22,753 nucleotides of DNA from a virus (Duplodnaviria; Heunggongvirae; Uroviricota; Caudoviricetes), in IMG/VR virus record IMGVR_UViG_2526164651_000008, positions 1 to 22,753 of that record; one strand, 5' to 3'. The first letter of the stretch is position 1. Each line of letters begins with the position of its first letter. Positions 9,201-18,525 of the stretch are shown here, in pieces. The position numbers were made by a program, and so were the translations under genes. Below the pieces are notes generated by a model. That model had not been told where the DNA came from. It worked only from the letters and a program-made list of their open reading frames with translations, and made no database searches.

Positions 9201-9692
9201 CAGATACTGCGAAGTGGTTTTGCCCTTAATGGTGATGTCTTTTTCCGTCACCCAGCCACCGTTACGCTGTATCTGAACCAGCAGGCGGACTTCCGACGGA
9301 TTCCGGTCCCCCTTTGAGGTGGTTTCCACCAGTGCCTGCACACCGAAGGTCAGGCGCAGACGATCAATGTTTGCCGACGTGATGGTCCGGGTGATCGGCG
9401 TGTCGTATTTCACTTCCGTACCCAGCACCGTCTCGGAGCCGGAAGATTCAACCCCCTCCGGCGGTGTCTGCTCCTGCTCGCCGGCGCGGAACACTACCGT
9501 AACACCGGAAAAGTTTGTCTTCCCCTCGCTGTCCAGGACCGGCGTACCGTTCAGCAGCACGCTTTTTAATCCATCCACCGGACCGTCAACCGCCCCTTCG
9601 CTGATGGCATCAATCACACTCAGCAACTGCGTGGATTTCAGGTTGTCCTTCGCTTCGCGCGGGGTATGCCCCTTACTGCTGCCTTTACCCAT
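6217..9692 (-). pseudogene. J: Tail tip / host specificity protein J, interrupted by a frameshift near 6991-7000
   Basis: The 930-aa N-terminal ORF ([33 protein letters not shown]...) is J-like. It leaves frame after ...[11 protein letters not shown] and runs into a junk tail; the 268-aa ORF in another frame resumes with ...[46 protein letters not shown]..., the J C-terminal domain. Confidence 0.85.
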
Positions 9693-9752: not shown

Positions 9753-10394
9753 TCAGCGACCAATCACCACAACCTGACCACCATCCCCTTCGTCTGCCGT
9801 GCTGATCTCCTGAGAAACCACACGTGACCCCACGCGCATTTCACCGTACAGAACGGGCAGAACATTGCCCTGGGCAACCATGTTATCCAGTGACGAGAAA
9901 TACGTGTTCTGCTTACCGTTATCCGTTGTCTGTGTACGGGGAGTTCTGGCTTTCGGTGCCAGCATCTGTGCAACACCGCCAAGCGTCATACTGGCACCGA
10001 GAGAAAACAGCAGATTACTCGCCATAATTCCTACCCCCGGCATCCATATAGCAACCGCCATAACAGCCGCCCCCAGCACCGCCTGAAACACACCGCCACT
10101 TTTAGCTCCCACCAGACGCGGTACTATGTGGATCACTGCACCATTTGCCAGCGGCTCATTAAGACGGGCAGACAATTCGGTTTCACCTGCATCACGCCCG
10201 GCAATGCGCACCTGATACCAGCCGTCACTCAGTTTCTGACGAAACGCCGGGAGCTGTGTGGCCAGTGCCCGGATGGCTTCAGCCCCCGTTTTCACACGAA
10301 GGTCGATGCGGCGACCAAATCGTTGTAAATCCCCGTAAAGGCAGATGCGCGCCATGCCCGGTGACGCCAGAGGGAGTGTGTGCGTCGCTGCCAT
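9753..10394 (-). CDS. I: Tail assembly protein I
   Basis: 213-aa ORF starting MAATHTLPLASPGMARICLYGDLQRFGRRIDLRVKTGAEAIRALATQLPAF..., matching lambda gpI as I recall it. Confidence 0.85.
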   Translation of the reverse strand: MAATHTLPLASPGMARICLYGDLQRFGRRIDLRVKTGAEAIRALATQLPAFRQKLSDGWYQVRIAGRDAGETELSARLNEPLANGAVIHIVPRLVGAKSGGVFQAVLGAAVMAVAIWMPGVGIMASNLLFSLGASMTLGGVAQMLAPKARTPRTQTTDNGKQNTYFSSLDNMVAQGNVLPVLYGEMRVGSRVVSQEISTADEGDGGQVVVIGR

Positions 10395-11738: not shown

Positions 11739-12068
11739 CAGTTCACCACCTGTTCAAAATCGGCCGTTACAGTCACCCATAACGCCCCCACGCTTGCCGA
11801 CCATTTACGACAAACCACCCTTGATCGGTTTCCAGTCATAAGGTGGCGTCCACTGAAATGCGCGGACGCCACCGTGCCGTTCCAGAAAGGCTTTTAAAGA
11901 TGGGTGTTCACCTTTACGAACACGTATCGTCACGCTGTAAGTCGACAACTGGTTATTCAGTCCCGCCGCACGACGCTGTTCATAACCATCGCCCAGCTTC
12001 ACTGTCACCACTTTCGGCTCTGATACCACATTCATATCCGGGCGCACTTTCCAGTGAAACGTCTCCAT
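11738..12068 (-). pseudogene. M: Minor tail protein M with a 1-nt frameshift in a G run
   Basis: METFHWKVRPDMNVVSEPKVVTVKLGDGYEQRRAAGLNNQLSTYSVTIRVRKG...TPPYDWKPIK matches lambda gpM, then stops early. The adjacent frame continues ...VVCRKWSASVGALWVTVTADFEQVVN with a TGATG stop/start overlap onto L. The indel maps to the CCC run at 11818-11820. Confidence 0.75.
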
Positions 12069-15044
12069 TACCGGTATGCTCCACTTAACCGGCCACCATC
12101 ACGGGCCTGCTGTTGCATAAAGTCCGCGGCCGCTTTTTTCCCGAGGTCATAAACCACCTTCAGGGCAGCCGGACCTATCTGCCCGTTCGTGCCGTCGTTA
12201 TTGATCTCAATGTTGTACTGCGGGGCAAACATCACCATGCCTGAACCACCAGTATCCGCCACAACCCCCAGCTTACCATCAGCACCGCGACGCAGTGGCA
12301 GAATGGCTTCAGGTCCCGCTTCCCCCATCACACCCGCGCCTTTTGCAAAAGCAAAAAACGTCGGACGGTTAACCACCGTGCCACTGTAGCGACTCAAATC
12401 AGCAGACTGGTAAACACCGCCATCAGCATTAGTCGTGAAGCCGAATAAAGAACCGACGCCCTTTACCGCCTGCATCATGGCCATCTGTGCCATAATTCTG
12501 GCCATATCTGACAACAGGGAAGAGGTGAAGGATTTAAAATTCAGCTTACCGGTGGTACAGAATGTCGCCAGTGCATTACCGGCACTGCTGAATGCCACTG
12601 TAAACATCTGTTCTGCCGTTCCCGCCGCATTATCCGCATCCGCCGTAAAATTCTGAAACGCCCGCATGGCACCGTTTTTCCAGTCGCCCTGCGCCACTTC
12701 CAGTTCCTGCCAGTAGCGTTTGTTTTCATTCAGTTGTCGCTTCAGGCTCCCCTTCAGCACCTCCTCAGCCCTCCGGTAGTCCTCCGTCCCGTAAGTGCCT
12801 TTCTGGCGACTGTCATTCTCAAGCTGTTGCAACTGTTGCCGGTATTCCTGCCGGATGCGCAACTGTGCCTGGTAGCGCTGCCGCTGCTTATCCCCCATAC
12901 CTGCAGTGGCAATATCCAGATTGTGCTGCTCACGCAGTGCACGTTCTTTGTCTGCCAGCTGGCTGGTCAGCTGAACCGTTTTTTTCTCAGGTCGTTAAGC
13001 GCTGTCTGTTTCTGCAGCTCCTGCTGTTTCACATCCAGCAGCGTCAGCGCCTGAATCAGCTCATTCTTACGGGCCAGCACACTCTTTTCATCTGCCGTCA
13101 GCTTTTTCCCGTCCAGGTCGCTGATGCGCTGCTGCAGGGCCAGAAGCTGTTTATGCGCTTCAGTCATCCTTTCAGTGGCAATGCCTGCTGACTGTCTGGC
13201 AGCAGCAATCTGCCCTTCCACCTGTGCCTGCTGCTGACTGTACTGCAGCAATAACCGGGTGGCCTCATCATTACGGGTTGCCCGTGTATTTTTCTTAATG
13301 GCTTTTTCGTAACGTTCATTTTCACGCTGTATCGCCGCATCCCTGACAGCCTGGTCGGCGTACTGCATGGCATTAATACGCGCAATTTCCCGCTGATGTC
13401 GTGCAGCTCCCGTTTCATTCATCCGGTTCAGCGCGGCATTTTCAGCATTCCGGCGTTTTTTCTCCTGAAGATCGTTAAGACGCTGCTGATCGTACTCCAC
13501 CTGTGTGGAGGCGTTTGTCCACGGATATTTTTTCGCGCGCTGAATTTTTTCCTGTAACGCATCAATCTGCGCATCCAGCGAGTCTTCACGACCAATATTC
13601 ATGGCCGCATCCCAGAACTGCTTCCACCAGTCAGACAAGGTTTGCAGCGTACTACCCAGCGCATTGAGATTATTATCAATATCAGATGTGCGTTTACCGG
13701 TTTCCTCTGCCAGCGCAGACATGGCGATCCGGGCCGCATCACTGGACCGCCCCTGCTCCCCAAGGACGCGTATCTGCTCAAGCTGAGTGGCAGTCAAAAA
13801 ATGCAGCGCATTGTCCAGCGCCTTCGCGGCATTTACAGGATCATCCTTCAGCCGCTTAAACTGATTTATGGTATCGCTGACCGACTGGCCAACCGATCGC
13901 TCCATCTGTGCGGCAGCTTTCGCCACCATACCAATATCGTTTCCATGAAATGCCCCACTGCCCACCACCTGTGCCAGCGCACCGGCTGCCGCATGTTGCG
14001 TGATACCATTCCCGGATATGGCCCGGCTGAGTTTCCACAACTGCCCGACAGTGACACCGGCATAATGTCCCGTCAGCGCCAGCTGACGGTTAAATTCCTC
14101 GCCCTCCTTCCGCCGTCATGCCAGGCTTTACCCAGACCCAGGACCGCCGCGACAAGTCCGCCAATAACGCCGCCAGTCATCATGCCTTTCGGCGACATCT
14201 GTGCGCCTGTCCATCCGGCACGGTTAGCCAGCGTTATCCCGGATCCCCTCAGCGCACCAAAATTGCCGCGCGCCATCTGACTGATTAACACCCCCAGCTC
14301 CCGCCGGGCTGCCGCACTTTTCAGCCCCAGCGAATGTGTGGCTTTTCCTGCCCGCTCCATTTTGCGGATATACACTTCTGCAGCACTGCTTACCCCCAGC
14401 TGAGCCGCCCTGGCGCGAAGCAACTCAGAAGACGACAGATTCTGGCGGGTTGCCTGCTCTTTAAGCTGGCGGATAAACGCCGCTTTCTGCCGGGTGGCCT
14501 GTTCCTCTGCCTGCGTCAGGGCACGGGTTTTCGCCGTGATCTCCGAAATCAGCGCCAGATAATCCTGCTGACCAACCCCGCCACTGTTTCTGGCCTGTCG
14601 GATCTGCTGCTGAATACGCTGTAATTCCTGAAGCCCCGCACCGGCCTGTTTCACACTGTCAATCTGGCGATAAAAGGCGGCAGCCGCTTTATCCTGCGCC
14701 TCCGCCAGTGCCCTGGCCTGCGCCTGTTCCTCGCGCATTTTCTGATTCAGGGCATCCACGCGCAGACGGGTTTGTTCCACCTCACGGGCCATGCGTTCAT
14801 GAGCCCGTGCATTCTTCTCCACCGTCTGCGCATGGGCTGATGCTGCTGTTGCAGCCGAAGAAGCCGCCTGCATTGTCTGCCGGGCCGCCTGAGTCTGACG
14901 CTCCATAAAACGCTGCATACGGGCAGAAGACCGTTCTGCATCGCTGGCTGCACCATTCAGAAGGTTTTTGATACGGGGAATTTCATTTTTAAACTCTGCC
15001 GCATCAATCCCCAAATCAATGACCAGGTTGGCTATCTGGTCCAT
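12068..15044 (-). pseudogene. H: Tail tape measure protein H, split into three ORFs by two frameshifts
   Basis: N-terminal ORF (MDQIANLVIDLGIDAAEF...), middle ORF and C-terminal ORF (...INNDGTNGQIGPAALKVVYDLGKKAAADFMQQQARDGGRLSGAYR, an H-type C-terminus) are collinear once the frame is changed near 14101-14113 and at the T7 run 12979-12985. The middle portion is coiled-coil rich. Confidence 0.8.
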
Positions 15045-15345
15045 AACGCACACCTCCGGAAATACCTTCCCCAAGATGCATCAGTTCTTCGTCCGTTCGC
15101 TCCGGTATCCCGTTCTCTTCCGGTAAAAGGCTGAAATCAGCCACCGCAGCATCGATGCTGCCGGACACCATTCTCACGATCAATGCCTTCAGCGAGGCAA
15201 ACTGCGCATCCATCCACACATCACTGAAGCTCTGCATCCGGAAATAATCGCCCCACTCACCAAGCTCAGTGGCCGACATATCCGACAGCATCCGCCGCCA
15301 GTCTGCCCGCCGGAACTCCCGGGCAAGCCGCATGACAAACTGCAT
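15016..15345 (-). CDS. T: T-frame portion of the G-T tail assembly chaperone (expressed by -1 frameshift from G)
   Basis: 109-aa ORF in the -1 frame relative to G. It is open upstream across the G stop, overlaps the G 3' end, and sits directly upstream of H, the conserved lambda G/GT arrangement. Confidence 0.6.
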   Translation of the reverse strand: MQFVMRLAREFRRADWRRMLSDMSATELGEWGDYFRMQSFSDVWMDAQFASLKALIVRMVSGSIDAAVADFSLLPEENGIPERTDEELMHLGEGISGGVRYGPDSQPGH

Positions 15346-15353
15346 TTCCCGCG

Positions 15354-15664
15354 TCAGGACTTTTCCGGCGTCAGCGCCTCATGATCATCATCCCCGGCAT
15401 TCTCAATGGTCCCCATACCGCTCAGCGACAGAACCCTCTCCGCCCCCGTGCCCAGCGCATCATACGACCATGTTGTCATAATGGATGCGCAAAGCGTCTC
15501 AACATCCTGAGACTGCTCAGCATTCCACAGTGAGCGGGAAACCAGCCAGGCATTGATATCCATTCCCATACGCAGAAAAGCAATCTGTCGTTCAGCCTCC
15601 GGCAGTTCTCCCTCCTGTGCATCAAACTTTGCCGTTCGCTGCTGAACAAACGTCAGATATTCAA
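15354..15664 (-). pseudogene. G: Tail assembly chaperone G, 5'-truncated by IS600
   Basis: The ORF on the minus strand abuts the IS600 end at 15665; its apparent ATG (15680) lies inside the IS terminal repeat. Position immediately upstream of T/H identifies it as G. Confidence 0.6.
15360..15366 (-). other. Candidate G-T -1 programmed frameshift heptamer GGAAAAG (variant of lambda GGGAAAG)
   Basis: In the G frame the sequence reads CCG GAA AAG TCC TGA; the -1 frame is open from upstream through the T ORF. The heptamer differs from the lambda slippery site by one base. Confidence 0.35.
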
Positions 15665-15707
15665 TGAGGTGTACTGGCAATAGCGGACACTACCATTTGT
15701 TCTTTTT

Positions 15708-16526
15708 TTAAGCAGCCATCTGATGATATTTTTCCCTGAAGGCTGCCGGGGAGATATTCCCCAGACGAGAGTGACGACGCTGACGATTGTAGAAAATCTC
15801 AATGTATTCCCGTATTACTGAGATGGCTTCATCCCGGTTATTAAAACGATAGTGGCTCAGGCTCTCATTTTTCAGCGTTCCCCAGAAGCTTTCCATCGGA
15901 GCGTTGTCGTAACAGTTACCTTTACGCGACATTGATGTTTTCAGACCAAACTGCTCCTGTATGACCCGGTAATCGTATGCGCAGTACTGTGAACCTCGAT
16001 CAGAGTGGTGGATTAGCCCGGCAGGTGGGCGCTGGCTCCTGAGCGCCATAAACAGGGCTTTACCTGTCAGCTCTTTTGTCATGCGCTCTCCCATGGCGTA
16101 GCCGACAATTTCACACGTATAAACATCTTTGATGCCAGCGAGGTACAACCATCCCTCCTGTGTGGCAACATACGTCAGGTCCGCCACCCAGACCTGATTT
16201 GGTGCTGTAGGAGCGAACGTCTGGTTCAGCAGATTTGGCGCAACTGGCAGATTGTGGTTCGGGTTCGTAGTCGCTCTGAACTTGCGTTTCTGCTTACAGC
16301 GTAGCCTTAGCTCCTTACGAAGACGTGCCAGTCGGTCACGACCAACGATGATGCCATTCTCTGCCAGCTCCGTCTGGAGCCGCCGGGTTCCATATGTTTC
16401 GCGAGTGCGGATATGTGCCACCTTAATCTCCAGTTTTAGCCGCTCATCATTTTGTTTTCTGTCTGAGGGTTCATGCTGTACCCAGTTGTAATAACCGCTC
16501 CTGGATACACCAAATACCTGACACAT
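15708..16526 (-). CDS. IS600 OrfB transposase (DDE integrase domain)
   Basis: 272-aa ORF with an IS3-family catalytic core (...[14 protein letters not shown]...NAPMESFWGTLKNE...). Confidence 0.85.
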   Translation of the reverse strand: MCQVFGVSRSGYYNWVQHEPSDRKQNDERLKLEIKVAHIRTRETYGTRRLQTELAENGIIVGRDRLARLRKELRLRCKQKRKFRATTNPNHNLPVAPNLLNQTFAPTAPNQVWVADLTYVATQEGWLYLAGIKDVYTCEIVGYAMGERMTKELTGKALFMALRSQRPPAGLIHHSDRGSQYCAYDYRVIQEQFGLKTSMSRKGNCYDNAPMESFWGTLKNESLSHYRFNNRDEAISVIREYIEIFYNRQRRHSRLGNISPAAFREKYHQMAA

Positions 16527-16561
16527 CGCTTCAATGGGAAATTGTTGTCGCCATTGTTCGA

Positions 16562-16864
16562 TTAACGCGTATTTTTCAGCGACTCCTGTGCAAAATACGC
16601 TGTTGCTTTTTTTAATATATCTCGCTCAAGGCGAGCTTCATTTAACGCCTTACGCAGTTGCAGAATTTCAGATTCCAGTTCAGCCACCGTGCGGGAACCA
16701 GGAGTACCGAGCCCTTTTCTGGCGGCGGTAACCCATTGTCCTAAAGTGCCTTCAGGAAGGGATAATCGGGAAGCGCCTTCACTGATCGAAAGTTGATTTT
16801 CAAGAACCGTTCTGACAGCTTCGGCTTTGAACTCTTTAGAGTAACGTTGGGTTTTTCTGCTCAT
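16562..16864 (-). CDS. IS600 OrfA (helix-turn-helix and leucine zipper)
   Basis: 100-aa ORF MSRKTQRYSKEFKAEAVRTVLENQLSISEGASRLSLPEGTLGQWV...; it ends shortly after the A7G frameshift window that leads into orfB. Confidence 0.85.
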   Translation of the reverse strand: MSRKTQRYSKEFKAEAVRTVLENQLSISEGASRLSLPEGTLGQWVTAARKGLGTPGSRTVAELESEILQLRKALNEARLERDILKKATAYFAQESLKNTR

Positions 16865-16928
16865 TATTAGCTCCTTCTGATGCCATTCTATTTCAGGAAG
16901 GAGTGTCCGTTAAACTCAGGCTACCTCA

Positions 16929-18289: not shown

Positions 18290-18366
18290 GGCCCTTTAGC
18301 TCAGTTGGTCAGAGCGAGCGACTCATAATCGCCAGGTCGCTGGTTCAAGTCCAGCAAGGGCCACCA
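18290..18366 (+). tRNA. tRNA-Ile2 (anticodon CAT, ileX/ileZ-like; reads AUA after lysidine modification)
   Basis: GGCCCTTTAGCTCAG...CGACTCATAATCG...GGTTCAAGTCCAGCAAGGGCCACCA. Cloverleaf with U8, GCTC/GAGC D stem, CTCATAA anticodon loop, TTCAAGT T loop and encoded CCA. Very similar to E. coli ileX as I recall it. Confidence 0.85.
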
Positions 18367-18367
18367 A

Positions 18368-18444
18368 CCACCACTAGCTCATCCGGATAGAGCATCAACC
18401 TTCTAAGTTGACGGTGCGAGGTTCGAGTCCTCGGTGGTGGGCCA
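18368..18444 (+). tRNA. tRNA-Arg (anticodon TCT, reads AGA)
   Basis: CCACCACTAGCTCATCCGGATAGAGCATCAACCTTCTAAGTTGACGGTGCGAGGTTCGAGTCCTCGGTGGTGGGCCA: 7-bp acceptor stem, anticodon loop CTTCTAA, T loop TTCGAGT, encoded CCA. It starts 1 nt after the previous tRNA. Confidence 0.85.
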
Positions 18445-18446
18445 GC

Positions 18447-18522
<76 letters not shown>

Positions 18523-18525
18523 TAT

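What the first reader, a model, noticed from the sequence alone, without database searches (positions are those of the whole stretch)
15345..15372. Non-canonical G-T frameshift heptamer (GGAAAAG) in the tail chaperone overlap
The G and T frames overlap as in lambda, but the only plausible slippery heptamer before the G stop is G GAA AAG rather than lambda G GGA AAG. After a -1 slip the P-site tRNA-Glu would have to re-pair with a middle-position G-U wobble. Either this is a lower-efficiency variant site or the GT fusion is no longer made.
Basis: inference. Interest (0 to 1): 0.35.

Follow-up and report, generated by a model that had tools for sequence, protein, structure and literature searches.

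The report
Known G-T frameshift site variant
The odd-looking slip site GGAAAAG is real, but it is the usual, long-annotated form of the tail-chaperone frameshift site in a large group of lambda-like phages (N15, phi80, mEp460, Gifsy), and in this window the gene carrying it has been cut off by an insertion sequence.

Summary
Observation confirmed. On the minus strand, CCG GAA AAG TCC TGA ends a gpG-like ORF. The heptamer G GAA AAG lies at 15366-15360. It is the only Z_ZZN-type site in the 25-nt G/T overlap, and T is in the -1 frame.

It is not a decay mutation. All relatives at 93% or more nucleotide identity that I read carry GGAAAAG (16 sequence variants, about 100 loci), among them isolated phages such as mEp460, cdtI and Ayreon. 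So do 13 of 24 diverged lineages, including Fels-1, Gifsy-1/2, phi80 and HK225. Codon choice (GAA, AAG, preceding codon ending in G) is fixed while the flanks diverge. The N15 GenBank record marks exactly GGAAAAG as the "slippery sequence for -1 translational frameshift". Lambda's GGGAAAG and the Stx-phage AAAAAAG occupy the homologous position.

T-frame protein conservation starts right after the slip-site lysine, and many relatives have no T start codon. GT is therefore most likely made by tRNA-Lys slipping AAG to AAA, with near-cognate tRNA-Glu re-pairing. I found no conserved stimulator, and efficiency is unmeasured.

In this window the unit is dead for another reason. IS600 (15665-16928) removes the first 25 codons of G, the V/U/Z genes are missing, and the tape-measure gene has three frame-breaking deletions.

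Already known; low interest.

The parts
15360..15366 (-). Slip site G GAA AAG (plus strand CTTTTCC). P-site codon GAA is 15365-15363; A-site codon AAG is 15362-15360.
   Evidence: Identical in all close relatives. The same heptamer is annotated as the slippery sequence in N15.
15354..15664 (-). 3' relic of the tail assembly chaperone gene G (codons 26 to 128 plus stop TGA 15356-15354). The listed ORF 15354-15680 borrows a TTG and four codons from the IS600 end.
   Evidence: Pfam Phage_TAC_2 matches profile positions 26-121 of 126. The alignment with intact G of CFSAN029787 and mEp460 starts at residue 26. Nucleotide homology to intact phages begins at 15665.
15354..15378 (-). G/T overlap, the only stretch in which a -1 shift yields GT. 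The T frame opens after the TGA at 15381-15379; the G frame closes at 15354.
   Evidence: Read from the sequence. The same 24-25 nt overlap is found in close relatives.
15016..15360 (-). T-frame extension of GT (K|VLTREMQFVMRLAREF...), ending at the stop at 15018-15016. The ATG at 15345, used by annotators as a separate T start, lies inside it.
   Evidence: Pfam Phage_tail_T. T-frame residues are conserved from the first codon after the slip. 13 of 30 relatives have no in-frame start before the LAREF motif.
15665..16928 (-). IS600 (IS3 family, 1264 bp; orfA 16864-16562, orfB 16526-15708). It truncates G. The flanking triplets CAA and ATA differ, so there is no target-site duplication.
   Evidence: BLAST hits annotated 'IS3-like element IS600 family transposase'. 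Ends read. The far side carries RusA/Q early-region DNA, not the 5' end of G.
12068..15044 (-). Tape-measure gene H, now a pseudogene split into at least three ORFs.
   Evidence: Against the 99.5%-identical intact copy in E. coli CFSAN029787: 1-nt deletions near 14112 and 12978, and a roughly 40-nt deletion near 13458. Pfam TMP_2, TMP_4 and Tape_meas_lam_C are spread over three ORFs.

Best explanation
GGAAAAG is the native, conserved -1 programmed frameshift site of a large sub-family of lambda-type G/GT tail assembly chaperone genes (N15, phi80, HK225, mEp460, cdtI, Fels-1, Gifsy-1/2 and many Enterobacterales prophages). It is not a mutated lambda site. Inferred mechanism: GAA sits in the P site and AAG in the A site. 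tRNA-Lys (mnm5s2UUU) slips from AAG to the better-matched AAA. tRNA-Glu (mnm5s2UUC) re-pairs on GGA through Watson-Crick pairs at positions 1 and 3 and a central G-U. A small fraction of ribosomes then continue in the T frame and give ...TPEK|VLTREMQFVMRLAREF... (GT). This makes it an A_AAG-driven site with a near-cognate P-site partner. It probably works at a low level, which is what a roughly 30:1 G:GT system needs. In this window the site is a fossil. IS600 has removed the start and first 25 codons of G, the upstream tail genes V, U and Z are absent, and H is frame-broken. Neither G nor GT can be made here.
For: Shown. (a) The heptamer, the frames and the 25-nt overlap. (b) Identity of the site in every close relative read (16 sequence variants covering about 100 of the 17 phage records, 80 IMG/VR contigs and 7 genome loci), including isolated phages. 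(c) Presence at the homologous position in 13 GGAAAAG and 2 AGAAAAG lineages out of 24 clusters at 80% identity, with T protein identity down to about 40%. (d) Codon-level constraint. GAA (never GAG) and AAG (never AAA) are used in all 15 GAA-type clusters, although local usage is 50% GAA and 36% AAG; the naive probability is 6e-12. The preceding codon encodes P, L, A or T yet ends in G in 13 of 15 clusters; the naive probability is 4e-4. (e) T-frame amino-acid conservation begins immediately after the slip lysine, and 13 of 30 relatives have no in-frame start codon before LAREF, so T can only be reached from G. (f) The N15 record NC_001901.1 carries a misc_feature 'slippery sequence for -1 translational frameshift' whose sequence is GGAAAAG. 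(g) A_AAG single-tRNA -1 sites with non-XXX P-site codons are used naturally: IS1222 G_CGA_AAG and Bacillus cdd A_CGA_AAG (Atkins et al. 2016, PMC5009743). (h) Truncation and decay in this window.
Against: No efficiency measurement exists for this site in its phage context. In a reconstituted E. coli system AUG GAA AAG gave mainly 0-frame product with wild-type EF-G and was used as the 'less slippery' control (PMC6924986). In reporters, Z_ZZN tetramers without a stimulator were barely above background as a group (mean 0.147% against 0.112%), and reached up to 5.6% with the IS3 pseudoknot, A_AAG ranking first (PMC4066793). I found no conserved stimulator: the downstream fold has z=-0.08, alifold finds nothing, and the upstream SD-like motif is explained by the amino-acid sequence. 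Morganella prophages have A GAA AAG, where position-1 re-pairing also fails. The role of P-site re-pairing is therefore not firmly established. The lineage counts are not phylogenetically independent, so the naive probabilities overstate significance.
Confidence: 0.85

Rival explanations
1. Decay mutation: an ancestral lambda-type GGGAAAG lost a G-to-A position in this degenerating prophage, so the site no longer works.
For: The prophage is clearly decaying. Lambda, phage 21, HK630 and PhiR12_1 have GGGAAAG at the homologous position.
Against: Every close relative has GGAAAAG, including isolated phages and the intact 99.5%-identical prophage of CFSAN029787. So do 13 diverged lineages, and N15 annotates it as the slip site. 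The difference long predates this prophage's decay.
Confidence: 0.02
2. T is translated on its own from the ATG at 15345, as PGAP and most phage records annotate it, and no frameshift is needed in this sub-family.
For: An in-frame ATG exists at 15345. Records annotate T as a separate CDS.
Against: The ATG is not conserved. 13 of 30 relatives (Gifsy-2, phi80, mEp213, and the Kluyvera, Kosakonia, Morganella and Providencia loci) have no ATG, GTG or TTG in the T frame before the LAREF motif. T-frame residues upstream of the ATG (K|VLTRE) are conserved as protein. The only purine-rich stretch before the ATG (GGGAA) ends 1 nt from it. In lambda, T exists only as GT (Levin et al. 1993, as cited in PMC5009743).
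Confidence: 0.05
3. The weak heptamer is compensated by a dnaX-like stimulator: an internal Shine-Dalgarno-like GAGG 10 nt upstream, and/or a downstream RNA structure.
For: GAGG ends 10 nt before the heptamer in the window. SD-like pairing of -4 kcal/mol or stronger peaks at 6-10 nt upstream in 8 of 21 GAA-type sequences. Pantoea GGTAAAG sites have GGGGAGGA 9 nt upstream.
Against: Synonymous-codon resampling that keeps the protein sequence gives the same count (7.85 expected against 8 observed, P=0.59). The N15, phi80, HK225 and mEp213 group has no such motif. The downstream fold is no better than shuffles (z=-0.08). The 12-sequence alifold finds 4 invariant pairs and no covariation.
Confidence: 0.08

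Closest known systems
Phage N15 genes 14/15 (and phi80, HK225, mEp237, mEp213 G/T)
   Same: Same gene pair, same -1 relationship, and the same heptamer GGAAAAG at the homologous position. It is annotated in NC_001901.1 as 'slippery sequence for -1 translational frameshift'.
   Different: The codon before the site is GCG (Ala) rather than CCG (Pro). The G stop lies 5 codons after the site rather than 1. T is only about 43% identical.
Phage lambda G/GT -1 frameshift at G GGA AAG
   Same: Homologous genes (Phage_TAC_2 and Phage_tail_T) and a homologous slip position just before the end of G. The A-site codon AAG and the T-frame continuation K|V..GEL.F..KLARE are shared. The function is a roughly 30:1 G:GT ratio for tail assembly (PMC5009743).
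   Different: The P-site codon is GAA (Glu), not GGA (Gly). P-site re-pairing is therefore near-cognate (central G-U) rather than cognate, and the site does not fit X_XXY_YYZ.
A_AAG tetranucleotide -1 sites (IS1222 G_CGA_AAG; Bacillus subtilis cdd A_CGA_AAG)
   Same: Shifting is driven by tRNA-Lys moving from AAG to AAA, with a P-site codon that cannot re-pair cognately (PMC5009743; PMC4066793).
   Different: Those cases rely on stimulators; in the tetramer reporter assays this was the IS3 pseudoknot. No stimulator was detected here. GAA to GGA keeps two Watson-Crick pairs and a G-U, which is better than CGA to GCG.
E. coli dnaX A AAA AAG
   Same: The same A-site AAG to AAA slip by the single E. 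coli tRNA-Lys (PMC6924986).
   Different: dnaX has a fully slippery P-site codon plus an upstream SD and a downstream hairpin, and shifts at high efficiency. None of these features is supported here.

Membership tests
Lambda-type tail assembly chaperone G/GT programmed -1 frameshift | Two overlapping ORFs immediately upstream of the tape-measure gene: a gpG-like chaperone and a gpT-like extension | tested here: met
   Pfam Phage_TAC_2 (E=1e-25) and Phage_tail_T (E=7e-15). H starts at 15044, overlapping the end of T.
Lambda-type tail assembly chaperone G/GT programmed -1 frameshift | The downstream ORF is in the -1 frame relative to G and open across the end of G | tested here: met
   The T frame is open from 15378 and the G stop is at 15356-15354.
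Lambda-type tail assembly chaperone G/GT programmed -1 frameshift | A shift-prone sequence inside the overlap, conserved among relatives | tested here: met
   G GAA AAG is invariant in close relatives and present in 13 of 24 diverged clusters. Synonymous positions are fixed.
Lambda-type tail assembly chaperone G/GT programmed -1 frameshift | T has no conserved initiation signal of its own, and protein conservation runs from the slip site | tested here: met
   13 of 30 relatives have no in-frame start. The K|[VA][LFI]..E..F motif is conserved.
Lambda-type tail assembly chaperone G/GT programmed -1 frameshift | An intact, translatable G ORF, so that G and GT are actually produced | tested here: not met
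   In this window G lacks codons 1-25 and its start. IS600 abuts at 15665, and V, U and Z are absent. This copy is a relic of a family member, not a working one.
Lambda-type tail assembly chaperone G/GT programmed -1 frameshift | GT fusion protein demonstrated, with measured efficiency | not testable with these tools
   Needs a reporter assay or mass spectrometry. No published in vivo value for GGAAAAG in a phage context was found.
Canonical X_XXY_YYZ slippery heptamer | Positions 1-3 identical and positions 4-6 identical, allowing cognate or wobble re-pairing of both tRNAs | tested here: not met
   G_GAA_AAG: positions 1-3 are G, G, A. P-site re-pairing GAA to GGA needs a second-position G-U (PMC6924986).
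Z_ZZN tetranucleotide (A_AAG) -1 shift site | An in-frame A_AAG that allows A-site tRNA-Lys to re-pair on AAA | tested here: met
   GA A_AAG in the G frame. The motif class is defined in PMC4066793.
IS600 (IS3 family) | About 1264 bp, TG...CA ends, orfA and orfB, near-identity to annotated IS600 copies | tested here: met
   15665-16928. 99% identical to elements annotated 'IS3-like element IS600 family transposase'. Ends read, ORFs.

The most novel reading that the evidence does not exclude
GGAAAAG might support GT synthesis at a level similar to lambda's roughly 3-4%. That would be unexpected, given that it behaves as non-slippery in vitro and breaks the X_XXY_YYZ rule. It would imply that a central G-U P-site re-pairing by mnm5s2U-tRNA-Glu is well tolerated in vivo, or that an unrecognised stimulator exists. 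One candidate is the conserved acidic ...[TS][PA]EK nascent peptide or the nearby stop codon. Alternatively, this sub-family may be tuned to a markedly different G:GT ratio from lambda.
Probability: 0.12. Interest if true: 0.4.

Novelty: already known. Interest (0 to 1): 0.1.

Why it matters
It matters little for discovery. The site is a long-annotated variant (N15), and here it sits in a dead gene. Two practical points follow. First, most records, including RefSeq/PGAP, annotate T of this sub-family as a free-standing CDS with no ribosomal slippage. Frameshift finders restricted to X_XXY_YYZ will therefore miss what appears to be the commonest G-T site among lambda-like Enterobacterales prophages. 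Second, the set of natural variants at one homologous position forms a ready-made series. It comprises GGAAAAG, AGAAAAG, GGGAAAG, AAAAAAG, GGTAAAG, GGCAAAA, GGGAAAA and CCCAAAA. It could be used to test how much P-site re-pairing matters for low-level -1 frameshifting in vivo.

Tried and rejected
1. Upstream SD-like stimulator. A positional peak of anti-SD pairing 6-10 nt before the heptamer looked promising. Synonymous-codon resampling reproduced it (7.85 expected against 8 observed, P=0.59), so it is a by-product of the acidic E-A/E-D protein sequence. Rejected.

2. Downstream stimulatory structure. The window fold is -29.3 kcal/mol against a shuffle mean of -29.1 (z=-0.08). RNAalifold on 12 diverse relatives gives 4 invariant pairs and no covariation. 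Rejected.

3. Other shift sites in the overlap. There are none in the window or in close relatives.

4. Over-representation of the heptamer in the window. It is not significant.

5. Transcriptional slippage. A run of four A is far too short (established knowledge). Not pursued.

6. Out-of-frame decoding of GGA by the prophage-encoded tRNA-Gly(UCC) at 18526-18600. This would need tRNA-Pro to re-pair CCG to GCC. I considered it unlikely and could not test it.

7. Literature searches for GGAAAAG or 'G GAA AAG' in a phage context. They found only the Peng 2019 in vitro control. Xu, Hendrix and Duda 2004/2013/2014 are not held, so I could not check whether they list or measured this site.

8. The IMG/VR scan returned only near-identical relatives. 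It was useful for counting but not for diversity. Diversity came from genome contigs and tblastn against phages.

Full report
**1. What is in the sequence**

The tail genes lie on the minus strand. The minus strand reads ...GAT CAT GAG GCG CTG ACG CCG GAA AAG TCC TGA.
- The G-frame stop is at 15356-15354, and the heptamer G GAA AAG is at 15366-15360.
- The -1 frame is closed by a TGA at 15381-15379 and is then open through 15016. The G/T overlap is therefore 25 nt.
- GGAAAAG is the only Z_ZZN-type site in the overlap.
- Pfam identifies the two ORFs as Phage_TAC_2 (lambda gpG; E=1e-25) and Phage_tail_T (E=7e-15). Tape-measure domains follow.

As a bare heptamer it is not enriched: 5 copies against 3.1 expected.

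**2. Is it a decay mutation? No.**

Megablast of the G-T region finds 17 phage records at 96-97% identity. They include cdtI, mEp460, Tritos, Ayreon, phi458, HannyBb and the PhiR and vB_EcoS series. It also finds 1840 E. coli genomes with full-length matches. The site is identical in every close relative I read:
- mEp460 and the intact 99.5%-identical prophage of E. coli CFSAN029787;
- Ayreon;
- in all, 16 sequence variants covering about 100 loci, drawn from the 80 IMG/VR contigs, the close genome loci and the fetched phage records.

More distant relatives keep it while their flanks diverge.
- Fels-1, Gifsy-1 and Gifsy-2 all read CCG GAA AAG.
- A survey with one genome per species covered Shigella, Escherichia ruysiae, Citrobacter, Symbiopectobacterium, Leclercia, Kluyvera, Atlantibacter, Proteus, Kosakonia, Phytobacter and Providencia. 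All read NNG GAA AAG, with T protein identity down to about 40%.
- Phages N15, phi80, HK225, mEp237 and mEp213 read GCG GAA AAG.

I clustered 61 distinct 127-nt segments at 80% identity, which gives 24 clusters:

| Heptamer | Clusters | Found in |
|---|---|---|
| GGAAAAG | 13 | listed above |
| AGAAAAG | 2 | Morganella |
| GGGAAAG | 3 | lambda/21/HK630; PhiR12_1/Stx2a_JNE; Edwardsiella |
| AAAAAAG | 1 | CP-1639-type Stx phages |
| GGTAAAG | 1 | Pantoea |
| GGCAAAA | 2 | Kluyvera genomosp. 1; Ewingella |
| GGGAAAA | 1 | Providencia rustigianii |
| CCCAAAA | 1 | Vibrio |

All sit at the homologous position, a fixed distance before the conserved T motif ..F...LAREF. The constant element is A_AAR.

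**3. It is already annotated**

The N15 RefSeq record carries a misc_feature 'slippery sequence for -1 translational frameshift' at 10027-10033. That sequence is GGAAAAG. Gifsy-1 and Gifsy-2 annotate T as part of a G frameshift product. This fixes the novelty class as already known.

**4. Evidence that the site is used**

(a) Codon-level constraint.
- All 15 GAA-type clusters use GAA and AAG, although the window's own tail genes use GAA 50% and AAG 36% of the time.
- The preceding codon encodes Pro, Leu, Ala or Thr, yet ends in G in 13 of 15 clusters.
- The naive probabilities are 6e-12 and 4e-4. They overstate significance because the lineages are related.

(b) The T-frame peptide is conserved from the first codon after the slip-site lysine (K|VLTRE, ALTRE, VLNRE, VLASE, AHAAA ...). 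In 13 of 30 relatives there is no ATG, GTG or TTG in the T frame before LAREF. The ATG at 15345 that annotators use is not conserved.

(c) Isolated phages with long tails carry this site. In lambda, GT is required for tail assembly at about a 30:1 G:GT ratio (PMC5009743).

**5. Mechanism (inferred)**

A-site tRNA-Lys slips from AAG to AAA, the well-known shift-prone step in E. coli (PMC5009743; PMC4066793). P-site tRNA-Glu moves from GAA to GGA, keeping pairs at positions 1 and 3 with a central G-U (PMC6924986).

The near-universal G at heptamer position 1 argues that P-site re-pairing matters. The Morganella AGAAAAG and the GGTAAAG and GGCAAAA variants argue that A_AAR alone can suffice.

Caveats:
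- In a reconstituted system G GAA AAG gave mainly 0-frame product.
- Z_ZZN tetramers without a stimulator were barely above background in reporters as a group, and reached up to 5.6% with a pseudoknot, A_AAG ranking first.

I looked for stimulators and found none:
- The downstream fold has z=-0.08.
- Alifold finds no covarying structure.
- An apparent SD-like peak 6-10 nt upstream is fully reproduced by synonymous resampling.

Efficiency in vivo therefore remains unmeasured. It is probably low.

**6. This particular copy is dead**

- Homology to intact phages starts at 15665. The next 1264 bp (15665-16928) are IS600.
- The G relic matches Pfam positions 26-121 of 126 and aligns from residue 26 of intact G. 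Its nominal TTG start lies inside the IS end.
- Beyond the IS lie RusA/Q early-region sequences, not the 5' end of G.
- The flanking triplets differ (CAA and ATA). This looks like an IS-mediated rearrangement rather than a simple insertion.
- The region of the reference prophage that covers most of Z, all of U and V, and the first 75 nt of G is absent from the window. Its gpFI-to-Z segment reappears inverted at 20727-21733.
- H has two 1-nt deletions and a roughly 40-nt deletion relative to CFSAN029787. J is split.

GT is indeed 'no longer made' here, but not because of the heptamer.

**7. Verdict**

- Observation: confirmed.
- Interpretation: partly supported.
- Novelty: already known.
- Interest: low.

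Noticed in passing
window 15665-16928: A complete IS600 (1264 bp) abuts codon 26 of G. The flanking triplets CAA and ATA differ, so there is no 3-bp target duplication. The far side carries lambdoid early-region DNA (RusA, Q). This suggests recombination between IS600 copies (inversion or deletion) rather than a simple insertion.
   Followed up: partly
window 12068-15044 (-): The tape-measure gene H is a pseudogene. Relative to the intact copy in E. coli CFSAN029787 it has 1-nt deletions near 14112 and 12978, and a roughly 40-nt deletion near 13458 flanked by a short repeat.
   Followed up: yes
window 6217-9692 (-): The tail tip gene J is split into two ORFs (6900-9692 and 6217-7023). The C-terminal receptor-binding domains are on the second ORF. 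This is another frame-breaking lesion.
   Followed up: no
window 1675-3318 (+): An IpaH-type effector (N-terminal T3SS LRR plus C-terminal NEL E3 ubiquitin ligase, Pfam E=6e-77) sits next to the tail-fibre and Lom genes. Together with the IS600 load, this points to a Shigella or EIEC host.
   Followed up: no
window 18290-18600 (+): A cluster of four tRNA genes lies downstream of the Q antiterminator gene: Met/Ile-type CAT, Arg-TCT, Thr-TGT and Gly-TCC. The Gly-UCC tRNA reads GGA, which is the -1-frame codon at the slip site. This is probably coincidence.
   Followed up: no
window 19298-20494 (-): An IS110-family transposase gene (DEDD_Tnp_IS110 plus Transposase_20). It is a second insertion sequence, lying between the tRNA cluster and the inverted head-gene fragment.
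   Followed up: no
window 20727-21733 (+): This stretch matches the gpFI, head-tail joining and start-of-Z region of the reference prophage at 95.5% identity. It lies in the opposite orientation to G-T-H, so the prophage has been rearranged.
   Followed up: partly
L001 (mEp460), L002 (CFSAN029787), L003 (Ayreon), L125-L129: Most records, including RefSeq/PGAP, annotate T of this sub-family as an independent CDS from a non-conserved ATG with no ribosomal slippage. Among the records fetched, only N15 (slippery-sequence feature) and phage 21 (joined GT CDS) mark the site; the Gifsy-1 and Gifsy-2 product names mention the frameshift.
   Followed up: partly
L035-L038 (Pantoea), L018-L020 (Morganella), L015/L016, L039, L134: Natural variants occur at the homologous slip position: GGTAAAG (with a strong GGGGAGGA 9 nt upstream), AGAAAAG, GGCAAAA, GGGAAAA and CCCAAAA. 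In several (Proteus, Morganella, Providencia, and the Kluyvera genomosp. 1 and Ewingella loci) the G stop codon follows the slip codon directly.
   Followed up: partly
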